Both the position numbers and the translations under genes were made by a program. From the IMG/VR virus record IMGVR_UViG_3300025849_000010, positions 95,619-159,618 of that record: a stretch of 64,000 bases of DNA. One strand, given 5' to 3'. The notes under the pieces are model-generated. The model had not been told where the DNA came from. It did not search any database and saw only the letters and a list, made by a program, of their open reading frames with translations. The DNA is from a virus. Positions 5,701 to 24,084 of the stretch are shown piece after piece (the stretch's first letter is position 1; each line of letters starts with the position of its first letter).

Positions 5701-8700
5701 AGCAAACGGCGCATTAACAACTGATCAAGACATACTTGATGCAGGCGCATTGATTGCTTCGAACAAACTATTCATACAAAAAGAAGTAGTTGCTTATGTT
5801 GACGGAAGTTGGATTAACTTCTCAAGTAACTATAATCAAACAACTTGCAGTCGCGATGTTGGTTTAATTCTAGATGCAATTAACTTTGACTTAACATGGG
5901 GCGGAACATCTAATGCTGTTGCTGCTGGTATTGCATACTTTAAACAAAGCAGTCAGCTAACACTACAGCGTCAGTTAGTACAAACTATTGACGGTATCAT
6001 GCATGCTATTAGATTAGCACAGCAGGTAGTTGAAAACTATCCAGTAGTAAGTTTCCAAAATACTGCTGCACAAGTAACTGACAATTTAAATCCAGGTAGC
6101 GCAGAAGCAATTACTAAGATTGCAGAACTTGGCGCACTAATCGAAGACATTGTTATTGACGGAGCAAGTGCAACTGCAGGTGTTACTATCTTTGGAAACG
6201 GAATTGTTCCAAATTCAAACATAGCTGTACAAAACGCAGCAGATTTGATTGCACTAAACAGATCGTTTATTCAAGCTGAAGTAGTAAGTTACATTAATAC
6301 TTACTTTACAAACTTCACTTATGACACTGATTTCTGTTACAGAGATGTTGGCTTGTTTATTGATGCAATACAATATGATTTGATCTTTGGTGGTAACGAA
6401 CGTGCTATTGAAGCAGGTAAATCATACTATATTGGTAATACTATTGTTATTCCGGGACAAGAATTCCAAACAGTTCTTGCTAATAGATACTTCCAGTCAT
6501 TAGTAGACAACATATTACAAAACATTGTTAACAAGAAACTTTATCAAAATGTTACTGGTCAAATTACTGACCCAACTAAGATAGTTGACGGCACAACACT
6601 AGGAATTGTTGAAGCGGAATTTAATACTATTGTTGATATTATTGAAAATGGTCCTACATCGCCTAACATTCCTACAGAAGTTGAAGGCGCATTTAATATC
6701 AGTTACACAACTATTATGGTGTCAACTGGTGAATATAAAGAAGACAACCCAGTTATTATTCCAGACTATGTATCTATTGTTGGCGATAACTTGCGTACAA
6801 CTATTATTCGTCCGCTAAATGCTAACCAAGATATTTTCCGTATTCGTAACGGTGCTTATTTGTTAGGTGTTACATTTAAAGATGGACTAGATGCATTTAA
6901 CGTACCTAGCTTTACAGGTAGATATTGTACTGCGTTTGACGATCCGTTTGACACAGGTGTTGATCGTACTGGTTATATAGGACTAAGAGATCGTCCGCTT
7001 ATTACACAGTCGCCATACATACAAAACGTATCTATTATTTCGTTCTTAGGTCTAAGCGGTTGTTTAGTAGACGGTTCAAAAGTTATTACACCGAACGTAC
7101 CGCGTTTTGCTATCGAAGCTGAAAATCCAGTATTTGGTGAAACACCTGAACAAGGTAAGTCAATGGTTGCTAACGCATATACTATGCTATCATTTGGTGG
7201 TATTGGCTGGCGCTTAACTAACGATGCATACGCACAGATCGTTTCGTGTTTCCAAATTTTCCTTGGAAATGGTTGCTGGTGTCAGTCAGGTGCTTACCTT
7301 TCTGTTACTAACTCTGCTACTAACTTTGGTCTATACGCACTACGTTCGTCAGGTTACTCTGCAAACAGCTTTGTGTTTGACCGTGGTGTTATTGCAGAAG
7401 TCGGCGCCCAAGCATCGCAGCAAAAACTTATCACAGTTGGTACTAAGCGTACTCCAGTTAACCAATTCGTTATTAGATTGTACGACGATGACGAGTACAA
7501 TAACTTAGCAAACGATATTACAAACAGCTTTAAAACTATTCCAAATATTGTTTACTTTAATGCAGGCGAACTTGGAGAATTATATGGCGATGCTGCAAAC
7601 TACGAAGTTGTAGCAGTAGGGTCAACTACATTTACAGTACAAATAGGATCTGGCAAAAACTTAGGATCTTGGGTCGAAGGCGGCACAGTTGACATAAACG
7701 GTGCATTTAATCCAGCAGCAGTATTGTCAGCTTCGTATAATAATACAAACGGTGCTTTAGAAATTGAAGTAACTACTTTACCGAATATTGGTGACATAGT
7801 AACACTTACTACATTGACTTTTGACGGAACTAACTACCCTGTAAACGAAGAAGGTTCACTAAGTCTTGAAGACAATACTATTACTATTCCGGGACACGGC
7901 TTAGTAACAGGAGATGCATTAACATATCGCAGAAACGGTAATATTGAAATTAACGGCTTTGCAGACCAAGGTTTGTATTATGTCGAGGTTCTAACTGATG
8001 ATATTATTAGACTATATCAAGATGACTCAAGAGGATTCGTTGCAGATATTATTGACGTATCAACAGGACAACATTATTTCGAAACACAGACTGAAGAATT
8101 CTTTATCGATGATATCATTCTTGATGCAGATAGCAATAAACTAACACACAACAAGTATCAGGTGTTAACACTTGCACCAGGAACATATAACTTTGAACCA
8201 GGTGACACTATTGAAGCAACAACTGGGGTTTATAGAAACAAGGCGTTTGTTTATACCTACGAAGCTGCAACAAGACAGCTAACTGTATCAGTTGAGAAAG
8301 CAGACAATTCAGGTTCACTAACAAGAATCTTCTTTGATGCAACTTCGATTATTGATAGAGATAGTAGTGCTATTCCGCAAAGTAATATACCTGTAACAGG
8401 ATTTACTTCTAGAACAGACTTATTTACAGCAGAGTTTACAATTGATCCGACTATTGTAGGTGGCGTACTAACTAATACAGGTGCGTTAAAAGGAACATTT
8501 ATTCGCTTGCATAGACCTTCAATTGTTAACAGTTCGTCACACACTTGGGAATATGCAGGTTCAGGTACAGACTATAACGCTCTACCACAGAACGGCGGTA
8601 TTACAAGAGAAGAATTTGAACAGTTTAGTGACTTACCAGGACGAGTTTACTCTTCAGGTACTAACGAACTTGGTGACTTTAAAGTTGGTGACTTCATTGT

Positions 8701-11700
8701 TGCAGAAAACAGAACTGGTAACATTACATTTAAAAACACAGTTACAGTTGGTGAACTTTCAGCACTGAAACTTGCAGTTTCGGATGTTGTTATTGAAGCA
8801 ATTTCAACTGATCCAGGACTAGGCGACAACGAACCAGGTGGTGCTACAGATACACGTTTGATTACGCAGAATGCAGCACGTAGCTTCTTAGCAAACAGAC
8901 TAGGTGACTTCATTGACAAGAACGTATCTACTAACTCAGTTAGTGGTGCTGTTCCGCAGATGAACGCACAAGGCTTGTTAAACTCGGATATTATTCCAGC
9001 AACACGTAACTTTAGTTTGTTCACAACAGATAAGAAGTTTGGTAGATTTAACCTAACTGATGATATTCCTGCGCAGGAACCGCTACAAGGCGATATTGCA
9101 CAAGAACGTTACTCACGTACATTCTTTACATTAAGTGCGCCAATAGCATTGAATGAAGACGATGTTATTATTGAATTAAACACTGGAGCAACTGCTATTG
9201 TTGATGAAGACAACGGCGGCGCGGCTACTGTTTATCTTGCTAACATCGAAGGAACGTTTAGTAATAATATTAGCGGAAACGTACTTAATGTAAGAGGAAG
9301 TAACACTACTACATATATTACTAATACTGGTTCAAGTGAAGTACGAGACATTCAGTACACAATGGTACAAGACTCGTCGAGTCAGTTCCTAAGATACTTA
9401 CCATCAGGCGCAGCTTTTGTTAATGGACAAACCATTACAGCAGCTAATTCAAAGACACAAGGTGTAATTACCGGTCAAGTTGAAGGTGTTGCATTGGCAC
9501 TTGATCTTGGAAATATTAGTACAGGTAATGGATATGTTCCATCAACTGGTTCACAAACATATAAGGGTGTTGTACTTTCAAATGTTAGCGGAACAGGCAC
9601 AGGTGCTATTGCAGACATTAGTGTAACCAACGGCAAAGTTACAAACGTTGACCTTACAAGAGGCGGCAGCGGATATGCTGTTGGTAATGCATTAACTGCA
9701 ACAGTTGACCAACTAGGCGGACAGAACACACAAGACTTCCAGGTTAGCATACTTGGAGTTGATAATAGAGTGTTTGTTGAGTTGCTAGCAGGAAAGTTTG
9801 TTGCTACAACAAGTTCAAATGATTATACTGAAGACGGCAACGCAGTAGTAACTACTGTACCGTTAGGAAATACAACACTTACTGCATTTAATGCTGACAC
9901 TATTGGCAACGGCGGTAATGTTGATTATCCAACTTCACGAATAACAATTAATTCGCATATATTTGATAACGGAGATGTAGTTAACTATGCTAGTTCACCA
10001 AATCCAGCAATTGGCGGATTTATACAAGGTGAAAGTTACTTTGTTAAAGTTGTTGATGCAAACACTATTGAACTTTACAACAGATACGATTTAAATGCTG
10101 CAAATAAAGTAATATTTACTTCCAGTTCTACAGGCACACATGCGTTTATTATTAACTATGTTGACACACGTAAAGATCGCATTTATGCACAGGACCACGG
10201 ATTTACTAACGGACAAGCATTCCGTTTTGTAGGAGCTAATCCTCCAACTGGCATGGCAAGCGGCGGATACTACTATGCTGGTACAGTAAGTCAGAATACA
10301 TTCTCGGTACACGAATTCCAGCAAGACGCAGAAAACAGTGTTAATGGAGTAACTCAAGGTGCTATTAACTTTATTCAAACTGGTAGCGGTAGTGCAGACT
10401 TTATTCACCAAAATATTACAATTTACGGAGAAGTTAACACATCAGGTAATGTAGAAACTAACTGGGCACTAACTGGTAGTGCAAACGTAGACGCATCAAA
10501 CATTGTGTCGGGTGTTATTAGTACATCACGTTTGGCAGCAGTTGGTACAGCGAATAGTGATACTTACTTAAAAGGTGACAGCAGTTGGGATTATGCAACA
10601 CGTACAGTTCGTACAGCACTTAATTCACCGCTTAACATAACTGGTAACTTCTATACAAGCGGCGGTCAAAACTTCTACTTCAAGAACACACAGTTTGATA
10701 TTGACAGAACTGATGGCACTTTAGGTAACCAAAGTTTCACTAACCTTGGTGTTGCAGCATTTAGTAAAGCACAGTTTAACGTAAACTCAGGTGAAGTTGA
10801 ACTAAAAGCAGGAGTACTAGATGCAGGAACACTAGACGGACTAGATAGTCAATACTTCCTAGATCCAGGAAACTTACTAAATCCAGTTCCTGTATCACGT
10901 GGCGGTACACAGATAGATCAATATATTGCCGGGGATATGATTTATGCAACATCTCCAACAACACTAAACAGACTGCCAATTGGTAGTCAAGGTGCTGTTA
11001 TGGTTGTTGATGAATTAGGGAACCCAGCATGGTCAAATGACGTTGCTCCGTTTGTTGAAGATACTAATAACTTCGGTGTTTCAAGACCACTAGAAATACG
11101 ACATGACGTAACAAATACTCCAGCAGTTGGCATTGGTGTTGGTATGCAGTTCCAGGTTGAAACTGCTAACAATAACAGAGAAGTTGGCGGCACTATTGAC
11201 GCTGTTGCATCAGACGTAACATTTGGTTCAGAAGACTTTAGCTTTAAGTTTAACTTAATGGCAGCAGGCTTCTTAGCAGAGCGTATGGTACTAGACTCAT
11301 TAGGTAACTTAGCTATTGACGGTGACTTAAATGTTGACGGTGGTGATATTAAAACTACTAAAACAAGTGCAACTGTATACGATACTACAGTTACATCACT
11401 AAGCATTGGTAGAGCTGCAACTTCAGTTACTATTGGCGCAGATAAAACTGGTGAACTAAGAGTACGAAATGCAACTCTAGTAGTTGGCGGTGACTCAATA
11501 GAAACACAGCCAGTTGATGCAAAAATTAAAGCACCAAATTCACTAGGTACTAACAAGCAAGGTCCAGATTTAACTATTCAAGGCGGCGCAAGTACAGGTA
11601 GTGGCGTAGCAGGATCAGTATTCATTGATACTGGTGCTAGTGGATCAAGCGGCAGTACTTCAAATACACAAGTAAATCGTGTAGAAATTAGCGGATCAGA

Positions 11701-14479
11701 CAATCATACACATAACTTAGACTTTGGTAGAAGTTCACAAGGTACGCAGCAAATTGGTAAGGTTGGTGTTAAAGGTCCTATTACTGGACAGTTTAACGTT
11801 AACGGTTCGGTATTAGAACTAACGCCAGGCGCCGGTACAGGTTCGGGACAAGGTGCTAAAGTTAACATTTACGGTTCAAATAGTATCGGTTCTGGTAGTG
11901 GCATACAAAGTAGTGAACTAATTGCAAGTTTCTCAGGAGACGCTATTAGACTAAACAAAGATGTTATTACACAAGCAACTAGCTTAGGCACAAATCAATC
12001 AACATTTGATCTTGTTAATGATACTGCAACAACACTTAATATTGGTGGCGCTGCAACAGCTATTGACATCGGTGCATCAAGTGGTTACTTGCACGTTAAC
12101 TCCGCTGACCAAGCAGTTAGTACTACAACAGGTGCGCTACGTGTAGACGGAGGCGGTAGTTTTGGTAAGAACTTGTATGTTGGTGGTAACTTAGTTGCTG
12201 CTGAACTTACACTAACTGGTGCTATTGATGGTAACAGTTACAATGTAGGCGGTATTGAAGTAATTGACACTAACAGACGCTTTATTTCAAGCGGTGGCAC
12301 AACTGGTGAACTTTCAAAAGTACACGGCATTAGCTTTGACTGGGACGGCAACTACGGCGCAGTCGGCGGTTATGTAAACCATGGTATTAGTTCACGTAAC
12401 GAAACTTGGGGAGCTAACGATAGTTTAAGTATTAACTCGTACAACAATGTTAACGTAAGACTTGATACTAACTCTAACAATGCTGCTGCAAGTACATTCT
12501 TCCGCATTAACAATGACGTAAGTCAAACTAATGGTAACATTGTACTAAGTGCAAGAGGCGACGGCAAGGTTGGTATTAACAAAGATCCAAGCGGTACTTA
12601 CAACTTAGATGTTGGCGGTAGCTTTAATGCTACAACTGGTTACATTAACGGTGGTGCAATTTGGACTGACGCTAATGACGGTGATGGCTCAGGCTTAAAC
12701 GCAGACTTGCTAGACGGCTTACATGCATCCAGCTTCCTACGTGTTGATACTGGTGCTGCATTTAGTGGTGGTGTATTTAAGATTAGTGCTCCTGCAACAA
12801 CAATTCAAAACACTGGCGAAGTTAACACATTACAGTTATATCAAGGCAACGGTGCTAATAGTTACGATGCATTTATGACATTCCATATTGGCGGTGACTA
12901 TGCTGTACACTTTGGTTTAGATGGAAGTACAAACGATCTAGCATACGGCGGTTGGTCAGCTGGTGCAGTTGCACATAAAGTATGGCACGCTGGTAATGAT
13001 GGTAGTGGCAGTGGACTTGATGCAGACTTGTTAGATGGACAAGATAGTGCATTCTTCCGTAACGCAAGTAATATTAATGCTGGTACTTTCCCAGATAGAT
13101 TTAGTAGTAGCGAACGTTACAACATTGGATTTATTGACGGTTACGGCGGCGATAGCTACGACAAACTGCGTGTATGGAATAGTGGTTCGTACTCAATAGG
13201 TATGCACAGTGGCCAAACAATGGGTTGGCTAAACGACTATGCTATGACATTCACAATGAATAACGATAGTGATCGTGGCTTTAAATGGCGTCATGAAAGT
13301 GATGGTGTTGCTGATGGTGCTATGGCACTTACAACAGATGGTCGTTTAACAGTTAAGCAGTTCATCTCAGTAGGTAATCAAACTACACGTTACCTAAGAG
13401 AACCAACAGGTAACTACGGTTCGATTCAGATTAGCGGTAGTGGATTTGGTAACTGGGAAGGCTTTAGCATTGACGGTCGTGCAGTATTCATGCATGACGG
13501 TGGCACTGCAACTGGTATCTTCAACGATGTAGATAACGAATGGTTGTTCTACGGTGTACACAACGCACAAACTGAAATGATGCATAATGGTAGTTGGAAA
13601 GTTCAAACACGTTCCAATGGTGCAAACATTGCAGGCGAGCTATATGTTGATAACTGGGTACGCATTGAAAGCAATTCAGGTATTTACTGGGAAGGTGGCA
13701 ACTATGCTGGATGGCACATTTATCCACAAGCAACTAACAGAATCCACATGCGTTCAGCTAACAGCGGAAGTTGTGAAGTTTCTCTTGCTAACAGTGCAAA
13801 CACTATCTATGGTAGATTATATGCAGATGATGCATCACAAGGCTTCCTAAACGAAGATGGCAACTGGGCACTACGTAGCTACAACAACGACGGTGTTTCA
13901 CCTGGTTGGAGATTCTACGAAAACGGTAACGAAAGCTGGACAGGCAACCCAGGTAATGACGTTGGTAAGATTGAATATCACGCTAACAGATTCTACATTG
14001 CATCAGGTGCTAACTCCGATCGTGTTGTACAGTTTAGACGTGATGGAACAGATGTTTCATACGTTGATAACAGTGGTGTTTACCAAGGTACTGCTGCAAG
14101 TGCTAACTGGGCTGACTTGGCAGAGAAATACTTAGCTGACGAAGTTTACGCACACGGTACTGTACTTGCTATTGGTGGCGATGCTGAAGTTACATTGTTC
14201 AAACCAGGCATGAAACTAGCAGGCGTTGTTTCAACACAGCCGGGCTTGATGATGAACCAAACAGACGATAACAGAGATGATCCGATGTGGCCGTTCGTTG
14301 CACTTAAAGGTCGTGTACCAGTTATGATTAATGGTTCAGCTAAGAAAGGCCAGTATATCATTGCAGATCAAGACGGTAAAGGTCGTGCTGTAGACGAACT
14401 AAGTACTATAGCAGAATACACTTTATTAATTGGTACTGCATTAGAAGATGGTACAGATGTAGTTGAAGTGAAGGTATAA
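2717..14479 (+). CDS. Giant tail fibre / receptor-binding virion protein (3920 aa)
   Basis: N-terminal fibre-anchor motif ILHKRN...LDLGEIAINTADGKMF; beta-helix-type motifs (YVSAEYGDDTNDG..KTIKRA; TIMVSTGEY..VSIVGDNLR); GSGL(N/D)ADLLDG motifs; C-terminal ADLAEKY...GVVST.PG...VALKGRVPV resembling an intramolecular chaperone/autocleavage domain. Confidence 0.8.
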   Translation: MANKILHKRNNVSGQEPLAEQLDLGEIAINTADGKMFIKQSDGSIKDVTQQIEKGDTRVVVNDQGNGVVTMEVDGIEKLRVDGTKVYVSDDLEIDDQGSIKLKELGQFGSSSVNIKAPPELEESYDIILPDTDARKGQILQNLGFGQTKWSDPGSLGGNRVYVSAEYGDDTNDGRTGAVKTIKRAAQIASDGIFTPVVDPGESAYAAKDLLEVNRTFLQTEVLNFSTKAFNITYDQAKCERDVGLIIDAIENDLRFGGDAATSHAGAAYSLESSALVKQAQDVATSYGLQRARDLAKSVVTNTPIIDTTQVAVAQQFDGTKTATASEAATVESLGQKVVDFYDNGVGEAPNETQTQDVGLLNAETLIDNNKTFIQNEVIAFLNNKYSGFSFDAAKCSRDTGYIVDAANFDLLYSGNAESHYAGITYLNATASLVRSDQKQETLAGIDYARSLAEKVVLGQQVDYLYQTTVAQNTELTPGTQTEATTVFNNISKVYSILNNGIGTANGVVTTDAGKLNSETLIDQNQDFIKEEVIGYLTTTYPGFSYDQNKCRRDVGYILDAISYDLTHGGNNESIQAALAYYQWTAKDAVNLQLAETRAGITYAIDLAKLVIVNQDPATSYQGIFAQFKDAGNPGDATSQTILTGLGSLIDDIITDGDSTTIGLDIDPNNSVPSAVQDTVNANAILAANKEFIQAEVVAFIEENFGNFNYDPVACERDVGLIVDAVKFDIEHGGDAESIFAGISYYNNVTTGTGEITGDAIEVLRKQLQPTLDAVEYARDLLANVVLQNAVSNLYQSGTTQTFDGTNPSTTSVAQTVFNRANTILTILKNGLGTTNSFTKTTGIGALNTEALLQANTAFLQEEVLGYINNQYPGLTYDQASCRRDVELIVDAIAYDLTHGGNTNSIAAGTAYYRQAAALVVTGQSTETLAGLVHLKELAQKVVRNVTVDVTYSATPQVFDGANPGDVTSANTVGTLADIVIDIVDDGLSPYINITANGALTTDQDILDAGALIASNKLFIQKEVVAYVDGSWINFSSNYNQTTCSRDVGLILDAINFDLTWGGTSNAVAAGIAYFKQSSQLTLQRQLVQTIDGIMHAIRLAQQVVENYPVVSFQNTAAQVTDNLNPGSAEAITKIAELGALIEDIVIDGASATAGVTIFGNGIVPNSNIAVQNAADLIALNRSFIQAEVVSYINTYFTNFTYDTDFCYRDVGLFIDAIQYDLIFGGNERAIEAGKSYYIGNTIVIPGQEFQTVLANRYFQSLVDNILQNIVNKKLYQNVTGQITDPTKIVDGTTLGIVEAEFNTIVDIIENGPTSPNIPTEVEGAFNISYTTIMVSTGEYKEDNPVIIPDYVSIVGDNLRTTIIRPLNANQDIFRIRNGAYLLGVTFKDGLDAFNVPSFTGRYCTAFDDPFDTGVDRTGYIGLRDRPLITQSPYIQNVSIISFLGLSGCLVDGSKVITPNVPRFAIEAENPVFGETPEQGKSMVANAYTMLSFGGIGWRLTNDAYAQIVSCFQIFLGNGCWCQSGAYLSVTNSATNFGLYALRSSGYSANSFVFDRGVIAEVGAQASQQKLITVGTKRTPVNQFVIRLYDDDEYNNLANDITNSFKTIPNIVYFNAGELGELYGDAANYEVVAVGSTTFTVQIGSGKNLGSWVEGGTVDINGAFNPAAVLSASYNNTNGALEIEVTTLPNIGDIVTLTTLTFDGTNYPVNEEGSLSLEDNTITIPGHGLVTGDALTYRRNGNIEINGFADQGLYYVEVLTDDIIRLYQDDSRGFVADIIDVSTGQHYFETQTEEFFIDDIILDADSNKLTHNKYQVLTLAPGTYNFEPGDTIEATTGVYRNKAFVYTYEAATRQLTVSVEKADNSGSLTRIFFDATSIIDRDSSAIPQSNIPVTGFTSRTDLFTAEFTIDPTIVGGVLTNTGALKGTFIRLHRPSIVNSSSHTWEYAGSGTDYNALPQNGGITREEFEQFSDLPGRVYSSGTNELGDFKVGDFIVAENRTGNITFKNTVTVGELSALKLAVSDVVIEAISTDPGLGDNEPGGATDTRLITQNAARSFLANRLGDFIDKNVSTNSVSGAVPQMNAQGLLNSDIIPATRNFSLFTTDKKFGRFNLTDDIPAQEPLQGDIAQERYSRTFFTLSAPIALNEDDVIIELNTGATAIVDEDNGGAATVYLANIEGTFSNNISGNVLNVRGSNTTTYITNTGSSEVRDIQYTMVQDSSSQFLRYLPSGAAFVNGQTITAANSKTQGVITGQVEGVALALDLGNISTGNGYVPSTGSQTYKGVVLSNVSGTGTGAIADISVTNGKVTNVDLTRGGSGYAVGNALTATVDQLGGQNTQDFQVSILGVDNRVFVELLAGKFVATTSSNDYTEDGNAVVTTVPLGNTTLTAFNADTIGNGGNVDYPTSRITINSHIFDNGDVVNYASSPNPAIGGFIQGESYFVKVVDANTIELYNRYDLNAANKVIFTSSSTGTHAFIINYVDTRKDRIYAQDHGFTNGQAFRFVGANPPTGMASGGYYYAGTVSQNTFSVHEFQQDAENSVNGVTQGAINFIQTGSGSADFIHQNITIYGEVNTSGNVETNWALTGSANVDASNIVSGVISTSRLAAVGTANSDTYLKGDSSWDYATRTVRTALNSPLNITGNFYTSGGQNFYFKNTQFDIDRTDGTLGNQSFTNLGVAAFSKAQFNVNSGEVELKAGVLDAGTLDGLDSQYFLDPGNLLNPVPVSRGGTQIDQYIAGDMIYATSPTTLNRLPIGSQGAVMVVDELGNPAWSNDVAPFVEDTNNFGVSRPLEIRHDVTNTPAVGIGVGMQFQVETANNNREVGGTIDAVASDVTFGSEDFSFKFNLMAAGFLAERMVLDSLGNLAIDGDLNVDGGDIKTTKTSATVYDTTVTSLSIGRAATSVTIGADKTGELRVRNATLVVGGDSIETQPVDAKIKAPNSLGTNKQGPDLTIQGGASTGSGVAGSVFIDTGASGSSGSTSNTQVNRVEISGSDNHTHNLDFGRSSQGTQQIGKVGVKGPITGQFNVNGSVLELTPGAGTGSGQGAKVNIYGSNSIGSGSGIQSSELIASFSGDAIRLNKDVITQATSLGTNQSTFDLVNDTATTLNIGGAATAIDIGASSGYLHVNSADQAVSTTTGALRVDGGGSFGKNLYVGGNLVAAELTLTGAIDGNSYNVGGIEVIDTNRRFISSGGTTGELSKVHGISFDWDGNYGAVGGYVNHGISSRNETWGANDSLSINSYNNVNVRLDTNSNNAAASTFFRINNDVSQTNGNIVLSARGDGKVGINKDPSGTYNLDVGGSFNATTGYINGGAIWTDANDGDGSGLNADLLDGLHASSFLRVDTGAAFSGGVFKISAPATTIQNTGEVNTLQLYQGNGANSYDAFMTFHIGGDYAVHFGLDGSTNDLAYGGWSAGAVAHKVWHAGNDGSGSGLDADLLDGQDSAFFRNASNINAGTFPDRFSSSERYNIGFIDGYGGDSYDKLRVWNSGSYSIGMHSGQTMGWLNDYAMTFTMNNDSDRGFKWRHESDGVADGAMALTTDGRLTVKQFISVGNQTTRYLREPTGNYGSIQISGSGFGNWEGFSIDGRAVFMHDGGTATGIFNDVDNEWLFYGVHNAQTEMMHNGSWKVQTRSNGANIAGELYVDNWVRIESNSGIYWEGGNYAGWHIYPQATNRIHMRSANSGSCEVSLANSANTIYGRLYADDASQGFLNEDGNWALRSYNNDGVSPGWRFYENGNESWTGNPGNDVGKIEYHANRFYIASGANSDRVVQFRRDGTDVSYVDNSGVYQGTAASANWADLAEKYLADEVYAHGTVLAIGGDAEVTLFKPGMKLAGVVSTQPGLMMNQTDDNRDDPMWPFVALKGRVPVMINGSAKKGQYIIADQDGKGRAVDELSTIAEYTLLIGTALEDGTDVVEVKV
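3411..6440 (+). repeat. Seven ~160-aa protein repeats with a conserved (Y/F)(D/N)xxxCxRD(V/T)xxx(I/V/L)DAxxxD(L/I)xx(G/S)G core
   Basis: Cys codons at 3431, 3902, 4367, 4859, 5360, 5846 and 6335, spaced 155-167 codons apart. Confidence 0.9.
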
Positions 14480-14482
14480 TTT

Positions 14483-14857
14483 ATGGGAAACATGACAAGA
14501 GCCTCGGCAAGAGATTACTTTACCGGAAATGCCGGGGCTCAGTTACGAGGATTTGACAAAACTATTAACTTTGCTGCTACAGTGTATGTTACAGGAAACG
14601 TGGACGGTGGCCGTGCTGGAACTGCATATGGTAATAGACGTTATGAATACGTAAATGCACCTAACAGTGATTACAACGGAAATGTTTATCCAAATACTAC
14701 ACAAGTAGATGCAACCCAATTAATTGATCAAGCACTTGATGCAATACAACGAACTTGCGATTTAATTGAAGGTCGTATTAGCAATAGTTACTTTGATTGG
14801 AGAATATGTCACGCAAGTTGTCATTATAGCTGCCACGGATCAAGAGGGAGAAGATAA
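14483..14857 (+). CDS. Putative radical-SAM substrate/precursor protein A with C-terminal (CHxS)3-RGRR
   Basis: Ends WRICHASCHYSCHGSRGRR; starts 3 nt after the fibre stop; lies upstream of nine rSAM genes. Confidence 0.75.
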   Translation: MGNMTRASARDYFTGNAGAQLRGFDKTINFAATVYVTGNVDGGRAGTAYGNRRYEYVNAPNSDYNGNVYPNTTQVDATQLIDQALDAIQRTCDLIEGRISNSYFDWRICHASCHYSCHGSRGRR

Positions 14858-15029
14858 TGGCAGGATTAAGTCATGCACAATTAGAAGCTCGGTACTATGG
14901 TAATGCATATACAAGAATACGCACATTTGATAAAACTATTAACGTAGCAGCTACAGTATATTATGCGCGATATAATGGTAGTGGCCAAGGAACTGCATAT
15001 GGTAATAGACGTTATGAATACGTAAATGC
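14618..15029 (+). repeat. Exact 41-nt direct repeat between the two precursor genes (14618-14658 and 14989-15029)
   Basis: ggaactgcatatggtaatagacgttatgaatacgtaaatgc is identical in both copies. Confidence 0.9.
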
Positions 15030-15240
15030 CGGGCAAGGTGCCTTTGCTAATACAGATATTCCAAATGGTGTAGGTGACAATTTATTAATAAGAGCAGGTG
15101 ATATACAAACATTTGCTTCAAATGCAATCAGCAGAACAGTAAATGGCATAGAAGGAAGAATTACAAATTCGTATTTCGACTTTAGAATATGCCATTCAAG
15201 TTGCCATTATAGCTGCCACGGCAGCAGAGGGAGAAGATAA
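14857..15240 (+). CDS. Putative radical-SAM substrate/precursor protein B, paralog of A
   Basis: Ends FRICHSSCHYSCHGSRGRR; shares FDKTIN.AATVY, GTAYGNRRYEYVNA and IEGRI.NSYFD with A; TAATG stop/start overlap. Confidence 0.75.
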   Translation: MAGLSHAQLEARYYGNAYTRIRTFDKTINVAATVYYARYNGSGQGTAYGNRRYEYVNAGQGAFANTDIPNGVGDNLLIRAGDIQTFASNAISRTVNGIEGRITNSYFDFRICHSSCHYSCHGSRGRR

Positions 15241-16304: not shown

Positions 16305-17012
16305 ATGACACAAGAAAATTACACACTGCCACTAAGTCCAACAGATTTAGCAGAAATATATAAAATAAAAACAAGCTCGGAAGATTACGTTCTCAAGGTT
16401 GATTATTTTAAAAGTAAGGAAGTACTGTCAGTAAAACATATACTCGTATATATTGCTAACACTAACTTTAAAGTACAGTTTGAAGGCATTGACGATGAAT
16501 TAATAAATGAATATATAATTTCTAATTTTATGGTTGATTGTCCGTTACTTTCTAGATACATTACGTTAATTGCTAAACGTAAACTAGGACAGGAATATAA
16601 TCAAGTTGACCAAGCATTAAATACTATAATGTCTGATGCTGACATTGATTCATATTTAGAAAAGAATGGCGAATTATTTGACGACTTGTTAGATAAACTA
16701 AAACATGTTACACTGTTTTGTTTAGATCAAGCTGGCAAATATGCCGACAAGTACAAAGAATTTATACCAGAAGAGATTGAACGTGCAGATGAAGAAACTC
16801 AAATTGGACTAAATATTGTATATATTGCAACATACTCGTTGGACTTGTTGTATTTGTTAGGTAATAAATTTGGTCCGTGGCCTACTAATAAATTAAATGT
16901 TAGAGTGTTTAATGATGTTAGTAAGTATCAAGGAGCAGACCTATATAATACATTACTAAAATATGGTGTTGCAACTAGTATGTTAGAATTATTTGACGAG
17001 GAATCAGCATAA
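16305..17012 (+). CDS. Hypothetical protein in the rSAM cluster (235 aa)
   Basis: SD-like GGAG upstream; TAATG overlap with the next gene. Confidence 0.7.
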   Translation: MTQENYTLPLSPTDLAEIYKIKTSSEDYVLKVDYFKSKEVLSVKHILVYIANTNFKVQFEGIDDELINEYIISNFMVDCPLLSRYITLIAKRKLGQEYNQVDQALNTIMSDADIDSYLEKNGELFDDLLDKLKHVTLFCLDQAGKYADKYKEFIPEEIERADEETQIGLNIVYIATYSLDLLYLLGNKFGPWPTNKLNVRVFNDVSKYQGADLYNTLLKYGVATSMLELFDEESA

Positions 17013-18193
17013 TGACAATGCAACAATCATATTGTAAACAGATGAAGTATAGTGGGCCAGAAAGTCTACCTCCTTCACACGCCCAGAAGTTTGACGTATT
17101 AATTAACTTTGAAGGCCTTACTGGCTGCGAATATGGTTGTTTAGGATGTTTTGTTAACAAGAATCAAGACGTTACTACAATGAATCAAATGCTAACAACT
17201 GCAAAAGAACTTGCAGATGGTGTAAAGCGTACAGGTTTAAACTTACGTGAGTTTGTTGTAGGTCCGACAGATTTATTCTCTGCGTCAAATACTGATAGCA
17301 TTCTTAATAATACTATTATACAAGATATAATGCGCGAACACACTAATGCACGTATTGCTACACCTAGTAAGATAGACGGCGTGAGCATGGAAAGGTTGCG
17401 AGAAGTATTTGCAATACTTGATGATCCTTCTAAGTATAGAGACGAAATGATCATTGAGTTTATTATGCCAGTTGGCGATGTTGATCGTATACTAAATGAC
17501 GAAGAATACTTTAAAGATATTAAATCAAAATTAGAATTCTTTAAATCCGAAACTCCCAAGAAAATTGACTGGAGTTGGACATTACAAGCAAGTAATGTTA
17601 TGCAAAAACATCTAACTAAAGAAAACTATAATAAACTGCTATATAAGATTCTTGATGAATATGAAACTATTCTAGAAATGAACCCAGCGTTCTCTAGAGC
17701 ACCGAGTGTATTGCACCAGCGTAAGAACTTAGTAGCATGGAATAACTTCCTAAAAGAAGTAGTAGATCAAGACAATTTTAAAGACGTTACAATGAGTATG
17801 GCTAACTTATATTGTAACTCCATGAACTTCATAGGGTTAACTGTTGTTCCTGGATTAGAGACGCCACGTGTATTTTTAAATGTAATGTTACACGAACAAG
17901 CATTCTTTACACAGCATAGGGATTTAGAAGTAACAGGACTAAGTTTTGAAGAAATTCTAGTCAAGAGGGATCACTTAATAGCACAAGGGTTAGCTAAGTC
18001 GTCTAAAGTTAAGGATTGTGCAGATTGCAAATATGCAGTAGCATGTGCAAACAGACTAATATTCCAAGCACAAGATGCAATGAACATGCACGAATGTTTA
18101 ATGCCGCTAGAAGTATTAGAACTGTATAATCCGTTTGTTACTAGTAACGAACAGTGGAACGACGATGCTTTAAAAATCGTCAATGCTCGTTAA
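17012..18193 (+). CDS. Atypical radical SAM protein 1 (GPTD type)
   Basis: GCEYGCLGCFV (CxxxCxxC), VVGPTD, C-terminal CADC-x5-C-x16-C. Confidence 0.8.
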   Translation: MTMQQSYCKQMKYSGPESLPPSHAQKFDVLINFEGLTGCEYGCLGCFVNKNQDVTTMNQMLTTAKELADGVKRTGLNLREFVVGPTDLFSASNTDSILNNTIIQDIMREHTNARIATPSKIDGVSMERLREVFAILDDPSKYRDEMIIEFIMPVGDVDRILNDEEYFKDIKSKLEFFKSETPKKIDWSWTLQASNVMQKHLTKENYNKLLYKILDEYETILEMNPAFSRAPSVLHQRKNLVAWNNFLKEVVDQDNFKDVTMSMANLYCNSMNFIGLTVVPGLETPRVFLNVMLHEQAFFTQHRDLEVTGLSFEEILVKRDHLIAQGLAKSSKVKDCADCKYAVACANRLIFQAQDAMNMHECLMPLEVLELYNPFVTSNEQWNDDALKIVNAR

Positions 18194-19211
18194 CCTAAAC
18201 TCAACTCCTACAGGATTTAACAATTATATAGAAGGCATAAGCCCTAAGGATAATAACTTTCTTAGGACAGAAGTTCATGCTGATATATTACATGGATGCA
18301 GTCAAAAGTGTCCAGGGTGTTTCATTCCTAGAAAAAATCTTACTAATGCTGATCATCTTACAACACTATGCGATATATTGGAATCTAGTGCATATACACC
18401 TGATGATGTTGTAATAGGTCCTACTGATATATTTGATGCTGAAAACTTTTGGGACTTAATGGACCATCCTAGTATGAAACGTTTATACAGTATTGCAGCA
18501 CTAAGTTTTAACTCAACACTACTACAGGACTACGACACTGTACTTGCCAAACACACTAAGATTTGGAGTCTTTACGAAGGATTGGATCGTACGCCTGATA
18601 TAGATTTTAAAATAGTACTTGATATTACTAGATATTTACAAGGCGATATTGAAGACATGTGTCGCAAACTAGAACTTTTTAAACAAGGTAGTGTACAGTT
18701 TAGAGTAAACTATTACCCGGGTATATTTGATCGTGTGAGCTATAATGATTTATGTGATATGATTAAAGAAGACTTCAATGCTCCAGTAGTTATATTGCCA
18801 GGTTTCTTAACAGACAGAAATAGTCGAGGTAAAGTTAGTAAATTACTTCCGATGTTTTTAGACGAGCTACGTAAACAAGATATAAGACCCGAATACAAAC
18901 AGTTATACACGATGTTTGATGCAAACTTTAATAGTCACGGATGTACCAATTATAGTTTTTACAACGGCAGCTTGTATATGAATCCATTTGTGTTTGACGG
19001 AATATTGCAGCGTACACAAGAATTTAAAGTAGACAATCTTAATACTAAAAACTTTTTAGCTGAAAATTTATCATATGCAGCATCTACTAAAGAATGTGAA
19101 AGTTGCGAATACTTAATGAGCTGTGCAGAGCGCAATGTATTGTTCTATATGAAGTCGAGAAATTTAACAGAGTGTGTTACAGTAAAGGAGTATACAAATG
19201 CCGGTCATTAA
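18183..19211 (+). CDS. Atypical radical SAM protein 2 (GPTD type)
   Basis: GCSQKCPGCFI, VIGPTD, CESC-x5-C-x16-C. Confidence 0.8.
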   Translation: MLVNLNSTPTGFNNYIEGISPKDNNFLRTEVHADILHGCSQKCPGCFIPRKNLTNADHLTTLCDILESSAYTPDDVVIGPTDIFDAENFWDLMDHPSMKRLYSIAALSFNSTLLQDYDTVLAKHTKIWSLYEGLDRTPDIDFKIVLDITRYLQGDIEDMCRKLELFKQGSVQFRVNYYPGIFDRVSYNDLCDMIKEDFNAPVVILPGFLTDRNSRGKVSKLLPMFLDELRKQDIRPEYKQLYTMFDANFNSHGCTNYSFYNGSLYMNPFVFDGILQRTQEFKVDNLNTKNFLAENLSYAASTKECESCEYLMSCAERNVLFYMKSRNLTECVTVKEYTNAGH

Positions 19212-20379
19212 AAATAACTTGTATTATGAGCTTACTACAGAAACGCAAACTAAGCCAGTAAGTGCAGTAAAAATACAGCTTGATGTGTTAGACGGGTGTG
19301 TACACGCTTGCCCTGGGTGTTTTGTACATCGTAGAGGAAATGCACCTGAAGTTGATCATTTAAAAGATTGCCGAAACTTTGTAAAACGAATTACAGATGT
19401 AGGTGTTTTAGTTGACGAAATACTCATAGGCCCAACTGACTGTTTATCTAGTGAAAACTTTTATGAAGTAATGAGCAATACTGATTTGTTAGCAATGATA
19501 AATGAAAACTCTCCTATACTTGCTTTTACTACTACATTTTTAGAAAAGGATCTAACACATTTAGATCGTTGGATTACGTTTTTACATGACAATGTGAATA
19601 CTGACACTGAAATAGAAATTGGCATAGCAACTGATCCTATGCGATATAAAGATATACTTTATATACAGCAATTAAAACGCTGTATTGCATATGTCGACCA
19701 GCATTTAAAACATGAATGTACATATACGTTTATTGTTAATATTAGAAACTATGACCTAGACTACGAGCAAATACATGATTTTGTAGTGAAGCAATTTGAT
19801 ACAACAATTGACTTTATTCCAAGTGTAAGTCGCAGTCATAAAGCAAGTATCATACTACCTACACTAAATCAATTCAATGAATTTTTTGAAGCATTACCAG
19901 AAGATACTCATTTAAATAATATTATGGTAGATCACACACATGCTGGGCATAATTATACCGTATTAAATTTTAAAGGAGGACAGTGGTATCTAAGTCCGTT
20001 CCTTTATGAAAATATGGCATTGTATGATAATATGTTTGCAGTAAACAATCTAGACGAAGCATATGATCTTACTGTGTCACAAGTAGATCGAGCTAAAGGA
20101 ACAGTGTGCGAAAACTGTGATTTATTTTTTAGTTGCTACAATAGAAAAATTATTTTATTACGTGACTACTTGGGTACTAAAGAGTGTATAGCGCCTAAGC
20201 AAAATATGTTAAAAAATATACATAACTATAATAAAAGTGCTGCTGAAATGTATGACTGGACAGGATATACTGTTGAGGGTGATAAGCAAGGATATCGTAA
20301 AAAATTCTTAATAACTAAAGACGGCGATGAAAGATTAGATGAAATAAAAAAGGTGTATCATGTCAATCGTAAAGGATAA
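19198..20379 (+). CDS. Atypical radical SAM protein 3 (GPTD type)
   Basis: GCVHACPGCFV, LIGPTD, CENC-x5-C-x16-C; SD AAGGAG. Confidence 0.8.
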   Translation: MPVIKNNLYYELTTETQTKPVSAVKIQLDVLDGCVHACPGCFVHRRGNAPEVDHLKDCRNFVKRITDVGVLVDEILIGPTDCLSSENFYEVMSNTDLLAMINENSPILAFTTTFLEKDLTHLDRWITFLHDNVNTDTEIEIGIATDPMRYKDILYIQQLKRCIAYVDQHLKHECTYTFIVNIRNYDLDYEQIHDFVVKQFDTTIDFIPSVSRSHKASIILPTLNQFNEFFEALPEDTHLNNIMVDHTHAGHNYTVLNFKGGQWYLSPFLYENMALYDNMFAVNNLDEAYDLTVSQVDRAKGTVCENCDLFFSCYNRKIILLRDYLGTKECIAPKQNMLKNIHNYNKSAAEMYDWTGYTVEGDKQGYRKKFLITKDGDERLDEIKKVYHVNRKG

Positions 20380-21454
20380 TTATTGGGAAGCAACAATGGG
20401 TCATAAAGACTATAATATCAGTGTAGGTGATGCACATGATATAAAAGTAAACATGACAGTTGACGTCCTTGACGGGTGCATACATGCTTGTGAAGGATGC
20501 TTTGTTAATCGCAGAAGACAGCAAGCATCTAATGATCAGTTTTCCAAAGTACTAGCTGCACAAAAAATGTTTAATCAAAATAACATTCGATTTAGCAGCA
20601 TAATACTTGGTCCTACTGATGTCTTTGGTAATTTAAATATACAGGACGTTTTAAAATTTGATAGTTTTAAAGAAGTAGTAAGTAACTGCACCACTGTCGG
20701 AATGATTAGTACACTGCTTAACGATGATACTCATATCAATCCTATAATAGATGGCTTCAACGCTATACCTAAATGTGAAGGTTTCTTATATGACTTTCAA
20801 GTAGTTATTGATGTTAAACGAGCACTTGATCCAGAATATAGAAAGAATCACTTAGCACGTATACATGATGTTTTAAATAGATTTACTGATCCCTTAAACT
20901 TTACTATAATTTTTAATATGGATCAAGACTTTGCTGAGTTTGGAAATCTAGCAGAAATATGTCGTGTAATAAAAGAAGAGTACGACACTATTGTAGAGCC
21001 TATTCCTAGTTATCAGCGTTATGGTAAAGGAAAAATACACAACGATATTATTAGGGCGTGGGTTGATATAATAGAAGACACGTTCACTAAAGAAAATCAA
21101 GAATACCTAGCCATGACAATAGCTGACAAAAATCAAGGTGGCGCACTTGAATTAAATTATACATATAGTGCAGGAGAATTTTATTCAACTCCGTTTGTTT
21201 ATGAAGTTGCACTTATACGTGACGAAAAGTTTAGAGTAAAAGATCCAACAGATATTAAAAGTTGGACTAGCTTAAAAACAGACTTGTATATAGATCAGCT
21301 TGCGTATTCCCCTAAAACGCTGCATTGTGAAACATGCAATCGTCGTGAAATATGTTTGAAAAAACACGTATTAAGTTATATGGAGCATTTTGACTTTACG
21401 GAGTGTGTGTATCCTAGAGAAGTATTAAATGAATATAGGCCGTTAACATGTTAA
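20360..21454 (+). CDS. Atypical radical SAM protein 4 (GPTD type)
   Basis: GCIHACEGCFV, ILGPTD, CETC-x5-C-x16-C. Confidence 0.8.
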   Translation: MSIVKDNYWEATMGHKDYNISVGDAHDIKVNMTVDVLDGCIHACEGCFVNRRRQQASNDQFSKVLAAQKMFNQNNIRFSSIILGPTDVFGNLNIQDVLKFDSFKEVVSNCTTVGMISTLLNDDTHINPIIDGFNAIPKCEGFLYDFQVVIDVKRALDPEYRKNHLARIHDVLNRFTDPLNFTIIFNMDQDFAEFGNLAEICRVIKEEYDTIVEPIPSYQRYGKGKIHNDIIRAWVDIIEDTFTKENQEYLAMTIADKNQGGALELNYTYSAGEFYSTPFVYEVALIRDEKFRVKDPTDIKSWTSLKTDLYIDQLAYSPKTLHCETCNRREICLKKHVLSYMEHFDFTECVYPREVLNEYRPLTC

Positions 21455-23780: not shown

Positions 23781-24084
23781 CATTGTAAGTTTCTTTATCT
23801 TCGCTATAGGGTTTAAAGTACGGATCATTGCCGGCTAATAAATCTTTATCATCTAGTAGCTCGTAGAAATCGTATTTAAAATCTAAACTTATCCAATAAG
23901 CATAACAGATTGCTACGAAATAACTTTTAGCAGGATACACCCATTCGTCTACACGTTCGTAGAAATGTTTCACTGCCCAAATAACACTGTCTTCTTCTGT
24001 ACGAATGTCGACTTTGTTTAAGTCGTCAGTAAATTCTGTTGCAGTACTATTAAATAGTTGTAATCTAGTCTTCCAGTTCAGCAT
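23665..24084 (-). CDS. Hypothetical protein in the rSAM cluster (139 aa)
   Basis: Start overlaps the end of rSAM 7; last gene of the minus arm; aromatic/acidic composition. Confidence 0.65.
   Translation of the reverse strand: MLNWKTRLQLFNSTATEFTDDLNKVDIRTEEDSVIWAVKHFYERVDEWVYPAKSYFVAICYAYWISLDFKYDFYELLDDKDLLAGNDPYFKPYSEDKETYNAILDHISLPDPSSQTGMVPDVRSYYEEEMMFDQYPLHN

What the first reader, a model, noticed from the sequence alone, without database searches (positions are those of the whole stretch)
14783..15240. The core motif RIC-HxS-C-HYS-C-HGS-RGRR combines Cxxx-repeat and His-Xaa-Ser patterns
Seen: both paralogs end in three period-4 C-H-x-S units plus a basic RGRR terminus, while their central regions diverge. 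Apart from one Cys in A, all Cys residues lie in this tail. Inference: the Cys could form thioether crosslinks, each HxS could form a three-residue cyclophane, and RGRR could be a recognition or hydroxylation site. A crosslinked Cys/His array is also a plausible metal site. Speculatively, a metal-loaded fibre tip could mimic a metallophore and dock on a host metal-uptake receptor, by analogy to the His-coordinated iron in the T4 gp37 tip.
Basis: partly seen in the sequence, partly recalled or inferred. Interest (0 to 1): 0.8.

Follow-up and report, generated by a model that had tools for sequence, protein, structure and literature searches.

The report
Enzyme-matured Cys-His tail on phage fibre proteins
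Two small proteins encoded just behind a giant phage tail-fibre gene end in a near-invariant 16-residue Cys-His-x-Ser tail; it always travels with radical-SAM enzymes, a relative is present in purified phage particles, and it is probably an undescribed enzymatic finishing step for a fibre-associated virion protein.

Summary
A (14483-14857) and B (14857-15240) are 52% identical paralogs. Both end in C-H-x-S three times, followed by R-G-R-R and a stop codon.

- **Conservation.** The tail is the C-terminal signature of a large family: more than 118 viral contigs, 18 MAG contigs and 468 protein clusters at 50% identity. It is always at the exact C-terminus, on bodies of 58-533 aa.
- **Gene context.** The tail gene sits in a conserved cassette: fibre gene, tail protein, a 235-aa partner, one to nine radical-SAM enzymes (some true SPASM), a cupin/JmjC protein and 2OG oxygenases. 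The cassette occurs in T4-like and phiKZ-like jumbo phages and in chromosomes of Bdellovibrio-like bacteria.
- **Virion evidence.** The Agrobacterium phage Atu_ph07 homolog gp170 was detected in purified virions. It peaked in the top gel band, although its mass is 32 kDa.
- **Best reading (about 0.6).** The tail is the substrate of the co-encoded radical-SAM enzymes, on a fibre-module virion protein.
- **Not tested.** The chemistry (thioether, His-Ser cyclophane or formylglycine), metal binding and the metallophore-mimic idea.
- **Not a member** of the HXS or CXXX-repeat systems.

I found no paper describing this family. This scan has already found the same family on many other genomes.

The parts
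2717..14479 (+). Giant fibre gene (3920 aa). Its C-terminal ~800 aa belong to the 'FIB' family found upstream of the tail gene in 79 of 139 loci.
   Evidence: The Atu_ph07 member gp176 is a virion protein.
14483..14857 (+). Tail protein A (124 aa). It starts 3 nt after the fibre stop codon.
14807..14854 (+). Tail of A: CHAS-CHYS-CHGS-RGRR, followed by TAA
14857..15240 (+). Tail protein B (127 aa). Its ATG overlaps the stop codon of A by 1 nt.
   Evidence: AF2 model: pLDDT 76, helix / beta-hairpin / helix body and a low-confidence tail.
15190..15237 (+). Tail of B: CHSS-CHYS-CHGS-RGRR, followed by TAA
15241..16302 (+). P353, unknown 353-aa protein. It is constant in this 'type II' gene arrangement (28 loci).
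16305..17012 (+). P235, the most constant partner of the tail gene (113 of 139 loci, one copy per locus). Confident model with no known fold. The Atu_ph07 homolog is absent from the virion list.
17012..22575 (+). Five tandem atypical radical-SAM paralogs (rSAMb): GCxxxCxGC, GPTD in place of GGE, and one C-terminal CxxCx5C...C motif. Genes: 17012-18193, 18183-19211, 19198-20379, 20360-21454, 21448-22575.
22572..23780 (+). Radical-SAM protein of the rSAMa group (phrog_1802)
23665..24084 (-). 139-aa protein (phrog_20737). A homolog also lies at the end of the RSL2 cassette (ORF081).
24065..27037 (-). Three radical-SAM/SPASM enzymes (rSAMa): 24065-24982, 24975-26009, 26009-27037. They carry the seven-Cys SPASM pattern. 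26009-27037 passes the SPASM domain cut-off.
27024..27500 (-). Cupin / JmjC-like protein (CUPIN family, 68 loci)
27484..28014 (-). 2OG-Fe(II) oxygenase (PF13759)

Best explanation
A and B are two copies of a widespread, undescribed family of proteins that belong to the phage fibre module. Each has a folded, variable body and an invariant C-terminal tail, (Cys-His-x-Ser)x3-Arg-Gly/Ser-Arg-Arg-COOH. I propose that this tail is the substrate of the co-encoded radical-SAM/SPASM enzymes. The cupin/JmjC and 2OG oxygenases would act as further tailoring enzymes, and P235 as a non-virion helper that may present the tail to them. The modified protein is then built into the particle, probably on or near a fibre.

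Shown: the conservation and exact C-terminal position of the tail; the conserved cassette and its link to fibre genes; the SPASM nature of the rSAMa enzymes; and the presence of a homolog, but not of the enzymes or P235, in purified virions.

Inferred: that the tail is modified at all; the chemistry (H-atom abstraction at Cys, Ser or His side chains giving thioether or C-C cross-links, or Cys/Ser oxidation to formylglycine); and the final role (stapling or stabilising the protein on the fibre, or forming a ligand or metal site).
For: - **Tail conservation.** The tail is invariant in 21 and 51 aligned homologs while the bodies diverge. After the tail is removed, 146 tail proteins fall into 6 unrelated body clusters. 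A tail-only profile finds 468 clusters, and all 150 listed matches end at the protein's last residue. Codon usage shows selection on the protein.
- **Link to radical-SAM genes.** 77 of 80 loci of at least 8 kb hold one or more CX3CX2C ORFs, and 50 hold three or more.
- **Conserved gene order.** The common arrangements are FIB-[CUPIN-rSAMa]-TAIL-P235-F4_368/P353-rSAM(n)-2OG. The same cassette occurs in phiKZ-like RSL2, Atu_ph07, Phosso and pPa_SNUABM_DT01.
- **Test from the P235 side.** All 15 GenBank phage records with a P235 homolog belong to phages in which I found a tail protein. I read it directly beside the P235 homolog in four of them: RSL2, Atu_ph07, Phosso and pPa_SNUABM_DT01.
- **Enzyme type.** The rSAMa profile matches anSME over its full length (E 8e-19), then CteB, YydG, ChlB and SuiB. 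The SPASM domain model is passed (28.7 and 30.2 bits against a cut-off of 27). The nearest NCBIfam models are all peptide or protein maturases: PapB, DynA, YhhB, AmcB, anSME, QhpD.
- **Virion data.** Atu_ph07 gp170 has a computed mass of 31.894 kDa, matching the 31,89 kDa in the table. It gave 8 peptides and 35% coverage, in bands 1-9 with its peak in band 1. gp164-169, 171 and 172 are absent from the virion table.
- **Bacterial copies.** In Bdellovibrio-like chromosomes the cassette lies next to a protein with a Peptidase_S74 fibre-chaperone domain.
- **Operon structure.** The fibre gene, A, B and P353 are translationally coupled.
Against: - No mass or chemical datum shows that the tail is modified.
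- The number of radical-SAM genes (1-9) does not follow the constant tail, so some of the enzymes may act on other substrates, such as the fibre.
- No RRE or leader-like recognition element was found.
- The rSAMb proteins and P235 have no characterised relative.
- Peaking in the top gel band also occurs for ordinary SDS-resistant fibre oligomers. The annotated Atu_ph07 tail-fibre proteins also run above their monomer size.
- A Cys3-His3 array could simply bind metal.
- An earlier check of the same claim on other DNA reported that 'part of it fell'; which part is unknown to me.
Confidence: 0.6

Rival explanations
1. The tail is an unmodified metal or iron-sulfur binding site (three Cys plus three His, possibly pooled between chains of a trimer) on a fibre-associated protein. 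The neighbouring radical-SAM enzymes and oxygenases modify something else, for example the fibre itself.
For: - Cys and His are invariant with period 4, and the x positions are small residues.
- The number of radical-SAM genes varies from 1 to 9 while the tail stays constant.
- The fibre gene is a constant neighbour.
- From my own knowledge, phage fibres and spikes often hold axial metal ions (T4 gp37, gp12, gp5).
Against: - Ser and the four terminal residues are conserved as strictly as Cys and His. A plain metal site would not require that.
- In the commonest arrangement (type I) the tail gene is embedded between rSAMa and P235, not next to the fibre gene.
- A Cys-rich or HxS-rich C-terminal repeat beside SPASM enzymes is the classic signature of a substrate (PMC13128918).
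Confidence: 0.2
2. The tail is cut off and released as a small modified peptide or cofactor, a true RiPP in the manner of PQQ or mycofactocin. The body would act only as a large leader.
For: - The core is invariant and sits at the extreme C-terminus, as in cofactor-type RiPPs (my own knowledge).
- The enzyme set is large: SPASM radical-SAM enzymes, in some loci a B12 radical-SAM methyltransferase-like protein, and oxygenases.
Against: - No protease or exporter is conserved in the cassette.
- The bodies are folded proteins of up to 533 aa. Some carry a glycine-rich fibre-type domain or a weak PA14 match.
- The body of the Atu_ph07 homolog is in virions.
Confidence: 0.08
3. One reading: the cross-linked, metal-loaded tail at the fibre tip mimics a metallophore and docks on a host metal-uptake receptor.
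For: Only indirect evidence: the fibre-module position, the virion presence of a homolog, and the Cys/His content.
Against: - The tail is identical in phages of very different hosts (marine bacteria, Ralstonia, Burkholderia, Agrobacterium, Pseudomonas) and in predatory bacteria. That fits a structural or assembly role better than recognition of a host-specific receptor.
- The variable bodies, not the tail, look like the specificity determinant.
- No HxH motif of the gp37 type is present.
Confidence: 0.03

Closest known systems
HXS antiphage system (HxsA matured by the radical-SAM enzymes HxsB and HxsC with HxsD; Li et al., Nat Commun 2026, PMC13128918; TIGR03976-03979)
   Same: A folded protein, not a short peptide, carries His-x-Ser repeats rich in basic residues and is matured by co-encoded radical-SAM enzymes. 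In HxsA the modification (+8 Da) maps to the last repeat, SHRSS.
   Different: - Here each HxS is preceded by an invariant Cys, and the array lies at the exact C-terminus and ends RGRR.
- The maturases reach at most 33.5 bits against HxsB/HxsC cut-offs of 370 and 268.
- No HxsD, signal peptide or peptidoglycan-binding domain was found.
- The owner is a phage or a predatory bacterium and the product is a virion protein, not a periplasmic defence effector.
Anaerobic sulfatase-maturating enzyme (anSME, PDB 4K36-4K39, TIGR03942)
   Same: It is the best solved-structure match of the rSAMa profile (E 8e-19, full length). It is a minimal radical-SAM + SPASM enzyme without an RRE domain, and it acts on a whole protein at a Cys or Ser. 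The last tail unit, C-H-(G/S/T/A)-S-R, and S-R-G-R-R both resemble the C/S-x-P/A-x-R target motif (my own reading).
   Different: The proteins score 35-42 bits against a cut-off of 349. There is no Pro at +2 and no sulfatase. Formylglycine formation is not shown.
Ranthipeptide and SCIFF maturases (PapB, CteB) and CXXX-repeat systems
   Same: The substrates carry period-4 Cys repeats. PapB is the best NCBIfam match of the rSAMa next to the tail gene (52.6 bits, full length). CteB is the second-best PDB match.
   Different: The scores are far below the cut-offs (340; 350 for TIGR04115). No acidic acceptor residue is present. The substrate is a 100-500 aa structural protein.
Triceptide (three-residue cyclophane) synthases: YhhB, AmcB, FxsB, GrrM, HaaB/HtkB (PMC11499958)
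   Same: H-x-S fits the aromatic-X-X three-residue motif, and His-based cyclophanes are known. YhhB, AmcB and FxsB are among the top weak matches.
   Different: All scores are below one eighth of the cut-offs. No precursor of that class has interleaved invariant Cys.
QhpD/QhpC of quinohemoprotein amine dehydrogenase
   Same: From my own knowledge, a SPASM enzyme installs several Cys thioethers in a small protein subunit that stays part of the final assembly. The QhpD model gives a weak full-length match (33 bits).
   Different: The cut-off of 453 bits is not approached. There is no Asp/Glu acceptor, no dehydrogenase context, and the setting is a phage.
T-even gp38 adhesin and gp37 tip (His-coordinated iron)
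   Same: A small gene directly downstream of the long-fibre gene, duplicated here, with a divergent middle part.
   Different: No sequence or fold similarity was found. There are no HxH motifs, and gp38/gp37 have no radical-SAM partners.

Membership tests
His-Xaa-Ser (HXS) system | HxsA-type protein with tandem His-x-Ser repeats | tested here: inconclusive
   Three H-x-S triplets are present, but each is preceded by Cys. A and B give no NCBIfam match at E<=0.1 other than a chance-level esterase hit for A, and none to any Hxs model.
His-Xaa-Ser (HXS) system | Paired radical-SAM maturases HxsB (TIGR03978) and HxsC (TIGR03977) | tested here: not met
   The best scores are 33.5 bits (cut-off 370) and 22.8 bits (cut-off 267.9), and they cover only the N-terminal core. 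The rSAMb proteins give no hit.
His-Xaa-Ser (HXS) system | HxsD partner, and a signal peptide and peptidoglycan-binding domain on HxsA | tested here: not met
   No HxsD or peptidoglycan-binding match in A, B, P353 or P235. The features themselves were taken from PMC13128918.
CXXX-repeat peptide system (TIGR04115 maturase) | Maturase above the family cut-off | tested here: not met
   29.9 and 23.0 bits against a cut-off of 350.
Radical SAM / SPASM domain proteins | CX3CX2C cluster motif plus a SPASM domain (TIGR04085) with the seven-Cys pattern | tested here: met
   For rSAMa, TIGR04085 scores 28.7 bits (window 26009-27037) and 30.2 bits (L025) against a cut-off of 27. The family consensus shows C..G....C followed by CxxCx5CxxxC...C. 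The rSAMb proteins have only one four-Cys motif.
Anaerobic sulfatase maturase (TIGR03942) | Score above the cut-off, and a C/S-x-P/A-x-R target in a sulfatase | tested here: not met
   35-42 bits against a cut-off of 349. There is no sulfatase. The profile similarity to PDB 4K36/4K37 (E 8e-19) shows a related architecture only.
PapB-type ranthipeptide maturase (NF047865) | Score above the cut-off, and Cys-X3-Asp/Glu repeats in the substrate | tested here: not met
   42.9-52.6 bits against a cut-off of 340. The tail has no Asp or Glu.
Triceptide (3-CyFE) maturases (YhhB, AmcB, FxsB, GrrM) | Score above the cut-off | tested here: not met
   At most 45 bits against cut-offs of 310-445.
RiPP (in the strict sense) | A short precursor with leader and core, and release of the modified core | tested here: inconclusive
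   The precursors are 58-533 aa. The body of B is predicted to fold. The body of a homolog is in virions. No protease is conserved in the cassette. Release of the tail was not tested.
Virion structural protein | Detection in purified particles | not testable with these tools
   This is shown only for the homolog Atu_ph07 gp170 (Table S5 of PMC6102473). There are no data for this uncultured phage.

The most novel reading that the evidence does not exclude
Radical-SAM enzymes install covalent cross-links (thioether, C-C or aldehyde-derived) in the invariant tail. These cross-links staple the small variable protein to itself or to the fibre, giving an enzymatically cross-linked, SDS-resistant adhesin module. 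Jumbo phages would use it for host recognition and Bdellovibrio-like predators for prey recognition. It would be the first radical-SAM-dependent maturation step of a virus particle.
Probability: 0.22. Interest if true: 0.88.

Novelty: new variant of a known kind. Interest (0 to 1): 0.72.

Why it matters
If the tail is modified, phages and predatory bacteria use radical-SAM chemistry to finish a structural, probably host- or prey-contacting, protein. This kind of virion maturation appears in no paper I could find.

- It would add a new substrate class and probably new chemistry to the SPASM enzymes. The atypical rSAMb family and the P235 fold have no known relative.
- It would explain why some marine T4-like phages carry up to a dozen radical-SAM genes (noted without explanation in PMC5332604).
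- The question is directly testable, because cultured phages with the cassette exist: RSL2 and RSF1, Atu_ph07, Phosso and pPa_SNUABM_DT01.

Tried and rejected
- **Family scans of A and B.** Pfam and NCBIfam gave nothing. The only hit was phrog_35144 (unknown function), and it matched the tail region.
- **Nucleotide search.** Megablast of the locus against GenBank phages found no match.
- **Fold searches.** Neither the B model nor the P235 model has a convincing relative. Foldseek gave E>0.09. The best VIA-align scores were Z 5.7 and 4.3, both generic. The weak P235 rows for anSME and ChlB (Z 3.5-3.7) are not significant.
- **ESM Atlas for P235.** No usable hit.
- **The search for related loci with the P235 alignment.** It failed because the alignment is too divergent.
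- **Glycyl-radical reading of S-R-G-R-R.** Rejected, because Gly is replaced by Ser or Ile in natural variants.
- **RSL2 ORF065 against this window's fibre C-terminus.** No similarity. In that lineage the upstream fibre-like gene belongs to a different family.
- **P353 against F4_368.** About 10% identity, so homology is not established.
- **rSAMb profile against the PDB.** Nothing found.
- **Literature.** Searches for the tail strings and for phage + SPASM + virion or RiPP found no paper on this family.
- **RSL2 virion proteomics paper (PubMed 27081857).** Not held in the library.
- **Reference error.** One reference I passed (L013:666-1049:-) used wrong-strand coordinates. That row should be ignored.

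Full report
**Observation.** The window is part of a 159.6-kb viral record that CheckV rates as 44% complete. It is a T4-like phage: it encodes a gp15-type tail sheath stabiliser and other T4-type structural proteins. A 3920-aa fibre gene (2717-14479) is followed after 3 nt by ORF A (14483-14857, 124 aa). ORF B (14857-15240, 127 aa) starts with an ATG that overlaps the stop codon of A. The next gene starts directly after the stop codon of B.

A ends RICHASCHYSCHGSRGRR and B ends RICHSSCHYSCHGSRGRR. A and B are 52% identical, with conserved ends and a diverged middle. The statement about the distribution of Cys is correct.

**How conserved is the tail?** All 18 metagenomic homologs, and a 186-aa protein of Ralstonia jumbo phage RSL2 (ORF068) that is otherwise unrelated, end in the same 16 residues.

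An R-S/T-R-R variant hit 15 more contigs.
- The 146 proteins found this way are 99-309 aa long. Once the tail is removed they fall into six unrelated body clusters.
- A 36-column profile of the C-termini, run against 1.84 billion representatives, found 468 clusters at E<=0.001. In all 150 listed hits the match ends at the last residue of a protein of 58-533 aa.
- Natural variation is small. The x positions hold small residues. The third or second Ser is sometimes Asn, Ala or Asp. RGRR is sometimes RSRR or RIRR. One protein has an expanded array.
- Codon usage shows selection on the protein. Ser is 143/143 at all three Ser positions although the pattern allowed Thr, Arg, Cys and Trp, and both Ser codon families and both Arg codon families are used.

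**Context.** I clustered all ORFs of 139 loci. The tail gene sits in a conserved cassette with two main layouts:

- Type I: F10-FIB-CUPIN-rSAMa-TAIL-P235-F4_368-rSAMa..., followed by 2OG oxygenases.
- Type II, the layout of this window: FIB-TAIL-TAIL-(rSAMb)-P353-P235-rSAMb(n)-rSAMa(n)-CUPIN-2OG.

The most constant partner is P235 (window 16305-17012), present in 113 of 139 loci with one copy each. rSAMa is in 106 loci, the fibre C-terminal family FIB in 79 and the cupin in 68. Of 80 loci of at least 8 kb, 77 hold at least one CX3CX2C ORF and 50 hold three or more. At least two of the three exceptions look like artefacts. L104 holds two rSAMa-family ORFs that the motif scan missed, and in L049 the tail genes lie at the very end of the fetched locus.

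In this window the cassette comprises two tail proteins, P353, P235, five rSAMb, four rSAMa, a 139-aa protein, a cupin/JmjC protein and a 2OG oxygenase.

The same cassette is present in phiKZ-like RSL2 as ORF065-081, and in Atu_ph07, Phosso and pPa_SNUABM_DT01. Starting from P235 instead of the tail, all 15 GenBank phage records with a P235 homolog belong to phages in which I found a tail protein. I read it directly beside the P235 homolog in four of them.

**The enzymes.** The rSAMa family shows CNLxCxFC, GGE, and the SPASM pattern C..G....C followed by CxxCx5CxxxC...C.

- It passes the SPASM domain model, with 28.7 and 30.2 bits against a cut-off of 27.
- Its profile matches anSME over the full length (E 8e-19), then CteB, YydG, ChlB and SuiB.
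- The nearest NCBIfam models are PapB, DynA, YhhB, AmcB, anSME, DarE, FxsB and QhpD. All are peptide or protein maturases, and all score far below their cut-offs.
- The HxsB, HxsC and CXXX-repeat models are hit only weakly.
- The rSAMb family (GCxxxCxGC, GPTD, one four-Cys motif) has no solved or curated relative.
- Some loci add a B12-dependent radical-SAM methyltransferase-like protein.

The enzymes therefore belong to the protein- and peptide-modifying SPASM clade, but to no described family. The chemistry cannot be read from homology.

**The tail proteins.** The AlphaFold model of B (51-sequence alignment, pLDDT 76) shows a helix / beta-hairpin / helix body and a low-confidence tail. No fold relative was found. 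Larger family members carry a glycine-rich fibre-type domain (PF21722) or a weak PA14 match. P235 gives a very confident model (pLDDT 93, pTM 0.90) with no convincing structural relative.

**Virion evidence.** Agrobacterium phage Atu_ph07 gp170 ends FCHSSCHASCHNSRSRR and sits in the order cupin (gp172), rSAMa (gp171), TAIL (gp170), P235 (gp169), rSAMa (gp168), downstream of the FIB-family protein gp176.

The published virion ESI-MS/MS table (PMC6102473, Table S5) lists gp170 at 31,89 kDa with 8 unique peptides and 35% coverage. It was found in bands 1-9 and was most abundant in band 1. My computed mass is 31.894 kDa. gp176 and gp177 are also listed. gp164-169, 171 and 172 are not.

Band 1 is the top of the gel: proteins of 127-139 kDa peak there, while proteins of about 30 kDa peak in bands 7-8. 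gp170 is the only protein under 40 kDa with three or more peptides that peaks in band 1. This fits a covalent or very stable high-mass assembly. It is not proof, because the annotated tail-fibre proteins also run above their monomer size.

**Beyond phages.** Half of the 18 MAG hits are binned as Bdellovibrionota. For two of them the cassette lies on contigs of 299 and 382 kb between housekeeping genes: thiolase, acyl-CoA dehydrogenase, carbamoyl-phosphate synthase and a secretin. No phage tail-sheath gene was found in these genomes. The cassette lies directly beside a 345-aa protein with a Peptidase_S74 intramolecular-chaperone domain, a hallmark of trimeric fibres. The link to fibres therefore holds in three phage lineages, with different fibre families, and in predatory bacteria.

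**Interpretation.** The most economical reading is that the tail is the substrate of the radical-SAM/SPASM enzymes on a fibre-module virion protein. P235 would be a non-virion helper and the cupin and 2OG enzymes would add further tailoring.

The closest characterised precedent is the HXS defence system. There a folded protein with basic HxS repeats is matured by two radical-SAM enzymes and carries a +8 Da change on SHRSS (PMC13128918). The defining HXS components are not present here.

The candidate chemistries are listed below. None has been tested.

- Cys thioethers, as made by PapB, CteB or QhpD.
- His-to-Ser three-residue cyclophanes, as in triceptides.
- Cys/Ser oxidation as by anSME. 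The last unit, C-H-x-S-R, and S-R-G-R-R both resemble C/S-x-P/A-x-R.

The main rival is an unmodified Cys3-His3 metal site. It is weakened by the equally strict conservation of Ser and of the basic end, and by the position of the tail gene between rSAMa and P235.

The metallophore-mimic idea has no support. It fits poorly with a tail that is identical across phages of very different hosts, whereas the bodies vary.

**Prior knowledge.** I found no paper on this family. The many radical-SAM genes of a marine T4-like genome have been noted without explanation (PMC5332604), and cultured-phage papers list the enzymes only as accessory genes.

This scan has reported the same family on many other genomes, with the same general reading. 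Those notes gave me the HXS paper, which I then read. One note says that a check of the same claim on other DNA found that 'part of it fell', without saying which part. For that reason I keep the modification itself marked as inferred.

Noticed in passing
window 14618-14658 and 14989-15029: An exact 41-nt identity between A and B, encoding GTAYGNRRYEYVNA. The tail-encoding DNA of the two genes is only 76% identical over 93 nt. This suggests recent gene conversion or a constraint at the nucleotide level on this block.
   Followed up: partly
L157-L159 (G002:C4:177000-216999; G001:C7:236400-256399): In Bdellovibrio-like MAGs the cassette is chromosomal. It lies between thiolase, acyl-CoA dehydrogenase, carbamoyl-phosphate synthase and secretin genes, next to a conserved pair of genes: a 345-aa protein with a Peptidase_S74 fibre-chaperone domain and a ~205-aa protein.
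   Followed up: partly
P0094 (227 aa): A family member with an expanded tail: about a dozen CHxS/CHxN units broken by short NV(P)V linkers before the final ARGRR. The repeat number can therefore grow.
   Followed up: no
window 17012-22575: Five tandem radical-SAM paralogs with GCxxxCxGC, GPTD instead of GGE, and a single CxxCx5C-x16-C motif. They have no match in the PDB sequences and only chance-level matches in NCBIfam. This is an uncharacterised radical-SAM subfamily.
   Followed up: partly
L092:5105-6772 and 17 other loci (family F12_556): A B12-binding radical-SAM methyltransferase-like protein (KedN5-like, 83 bits, below the cut-off) is an optional member of the cassette. It is not present in this window.
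   Followed up: no
window 28004-28456 and 28473-29903: A NUDIX hydrolase and a T4 gp15-type tail sheath stabiliser directly flank the minus-strand enzyme run. The cassette is therefore embedded in the late structural region.
   Followed up: no
window 3-2648: An 881-aa open-ended ORF upstream of the fibre gene matches phage structural and baseplate-wedge PHROGs, with repeated short domains.
   Followed up: no
L141 (Atu_ph07) gp180: The 4449-aa 'virion structural protein' upstream of the cassette is absent from the published virion MS table, although gp176, gp177 and gp170 are listed.
   Followed up: no
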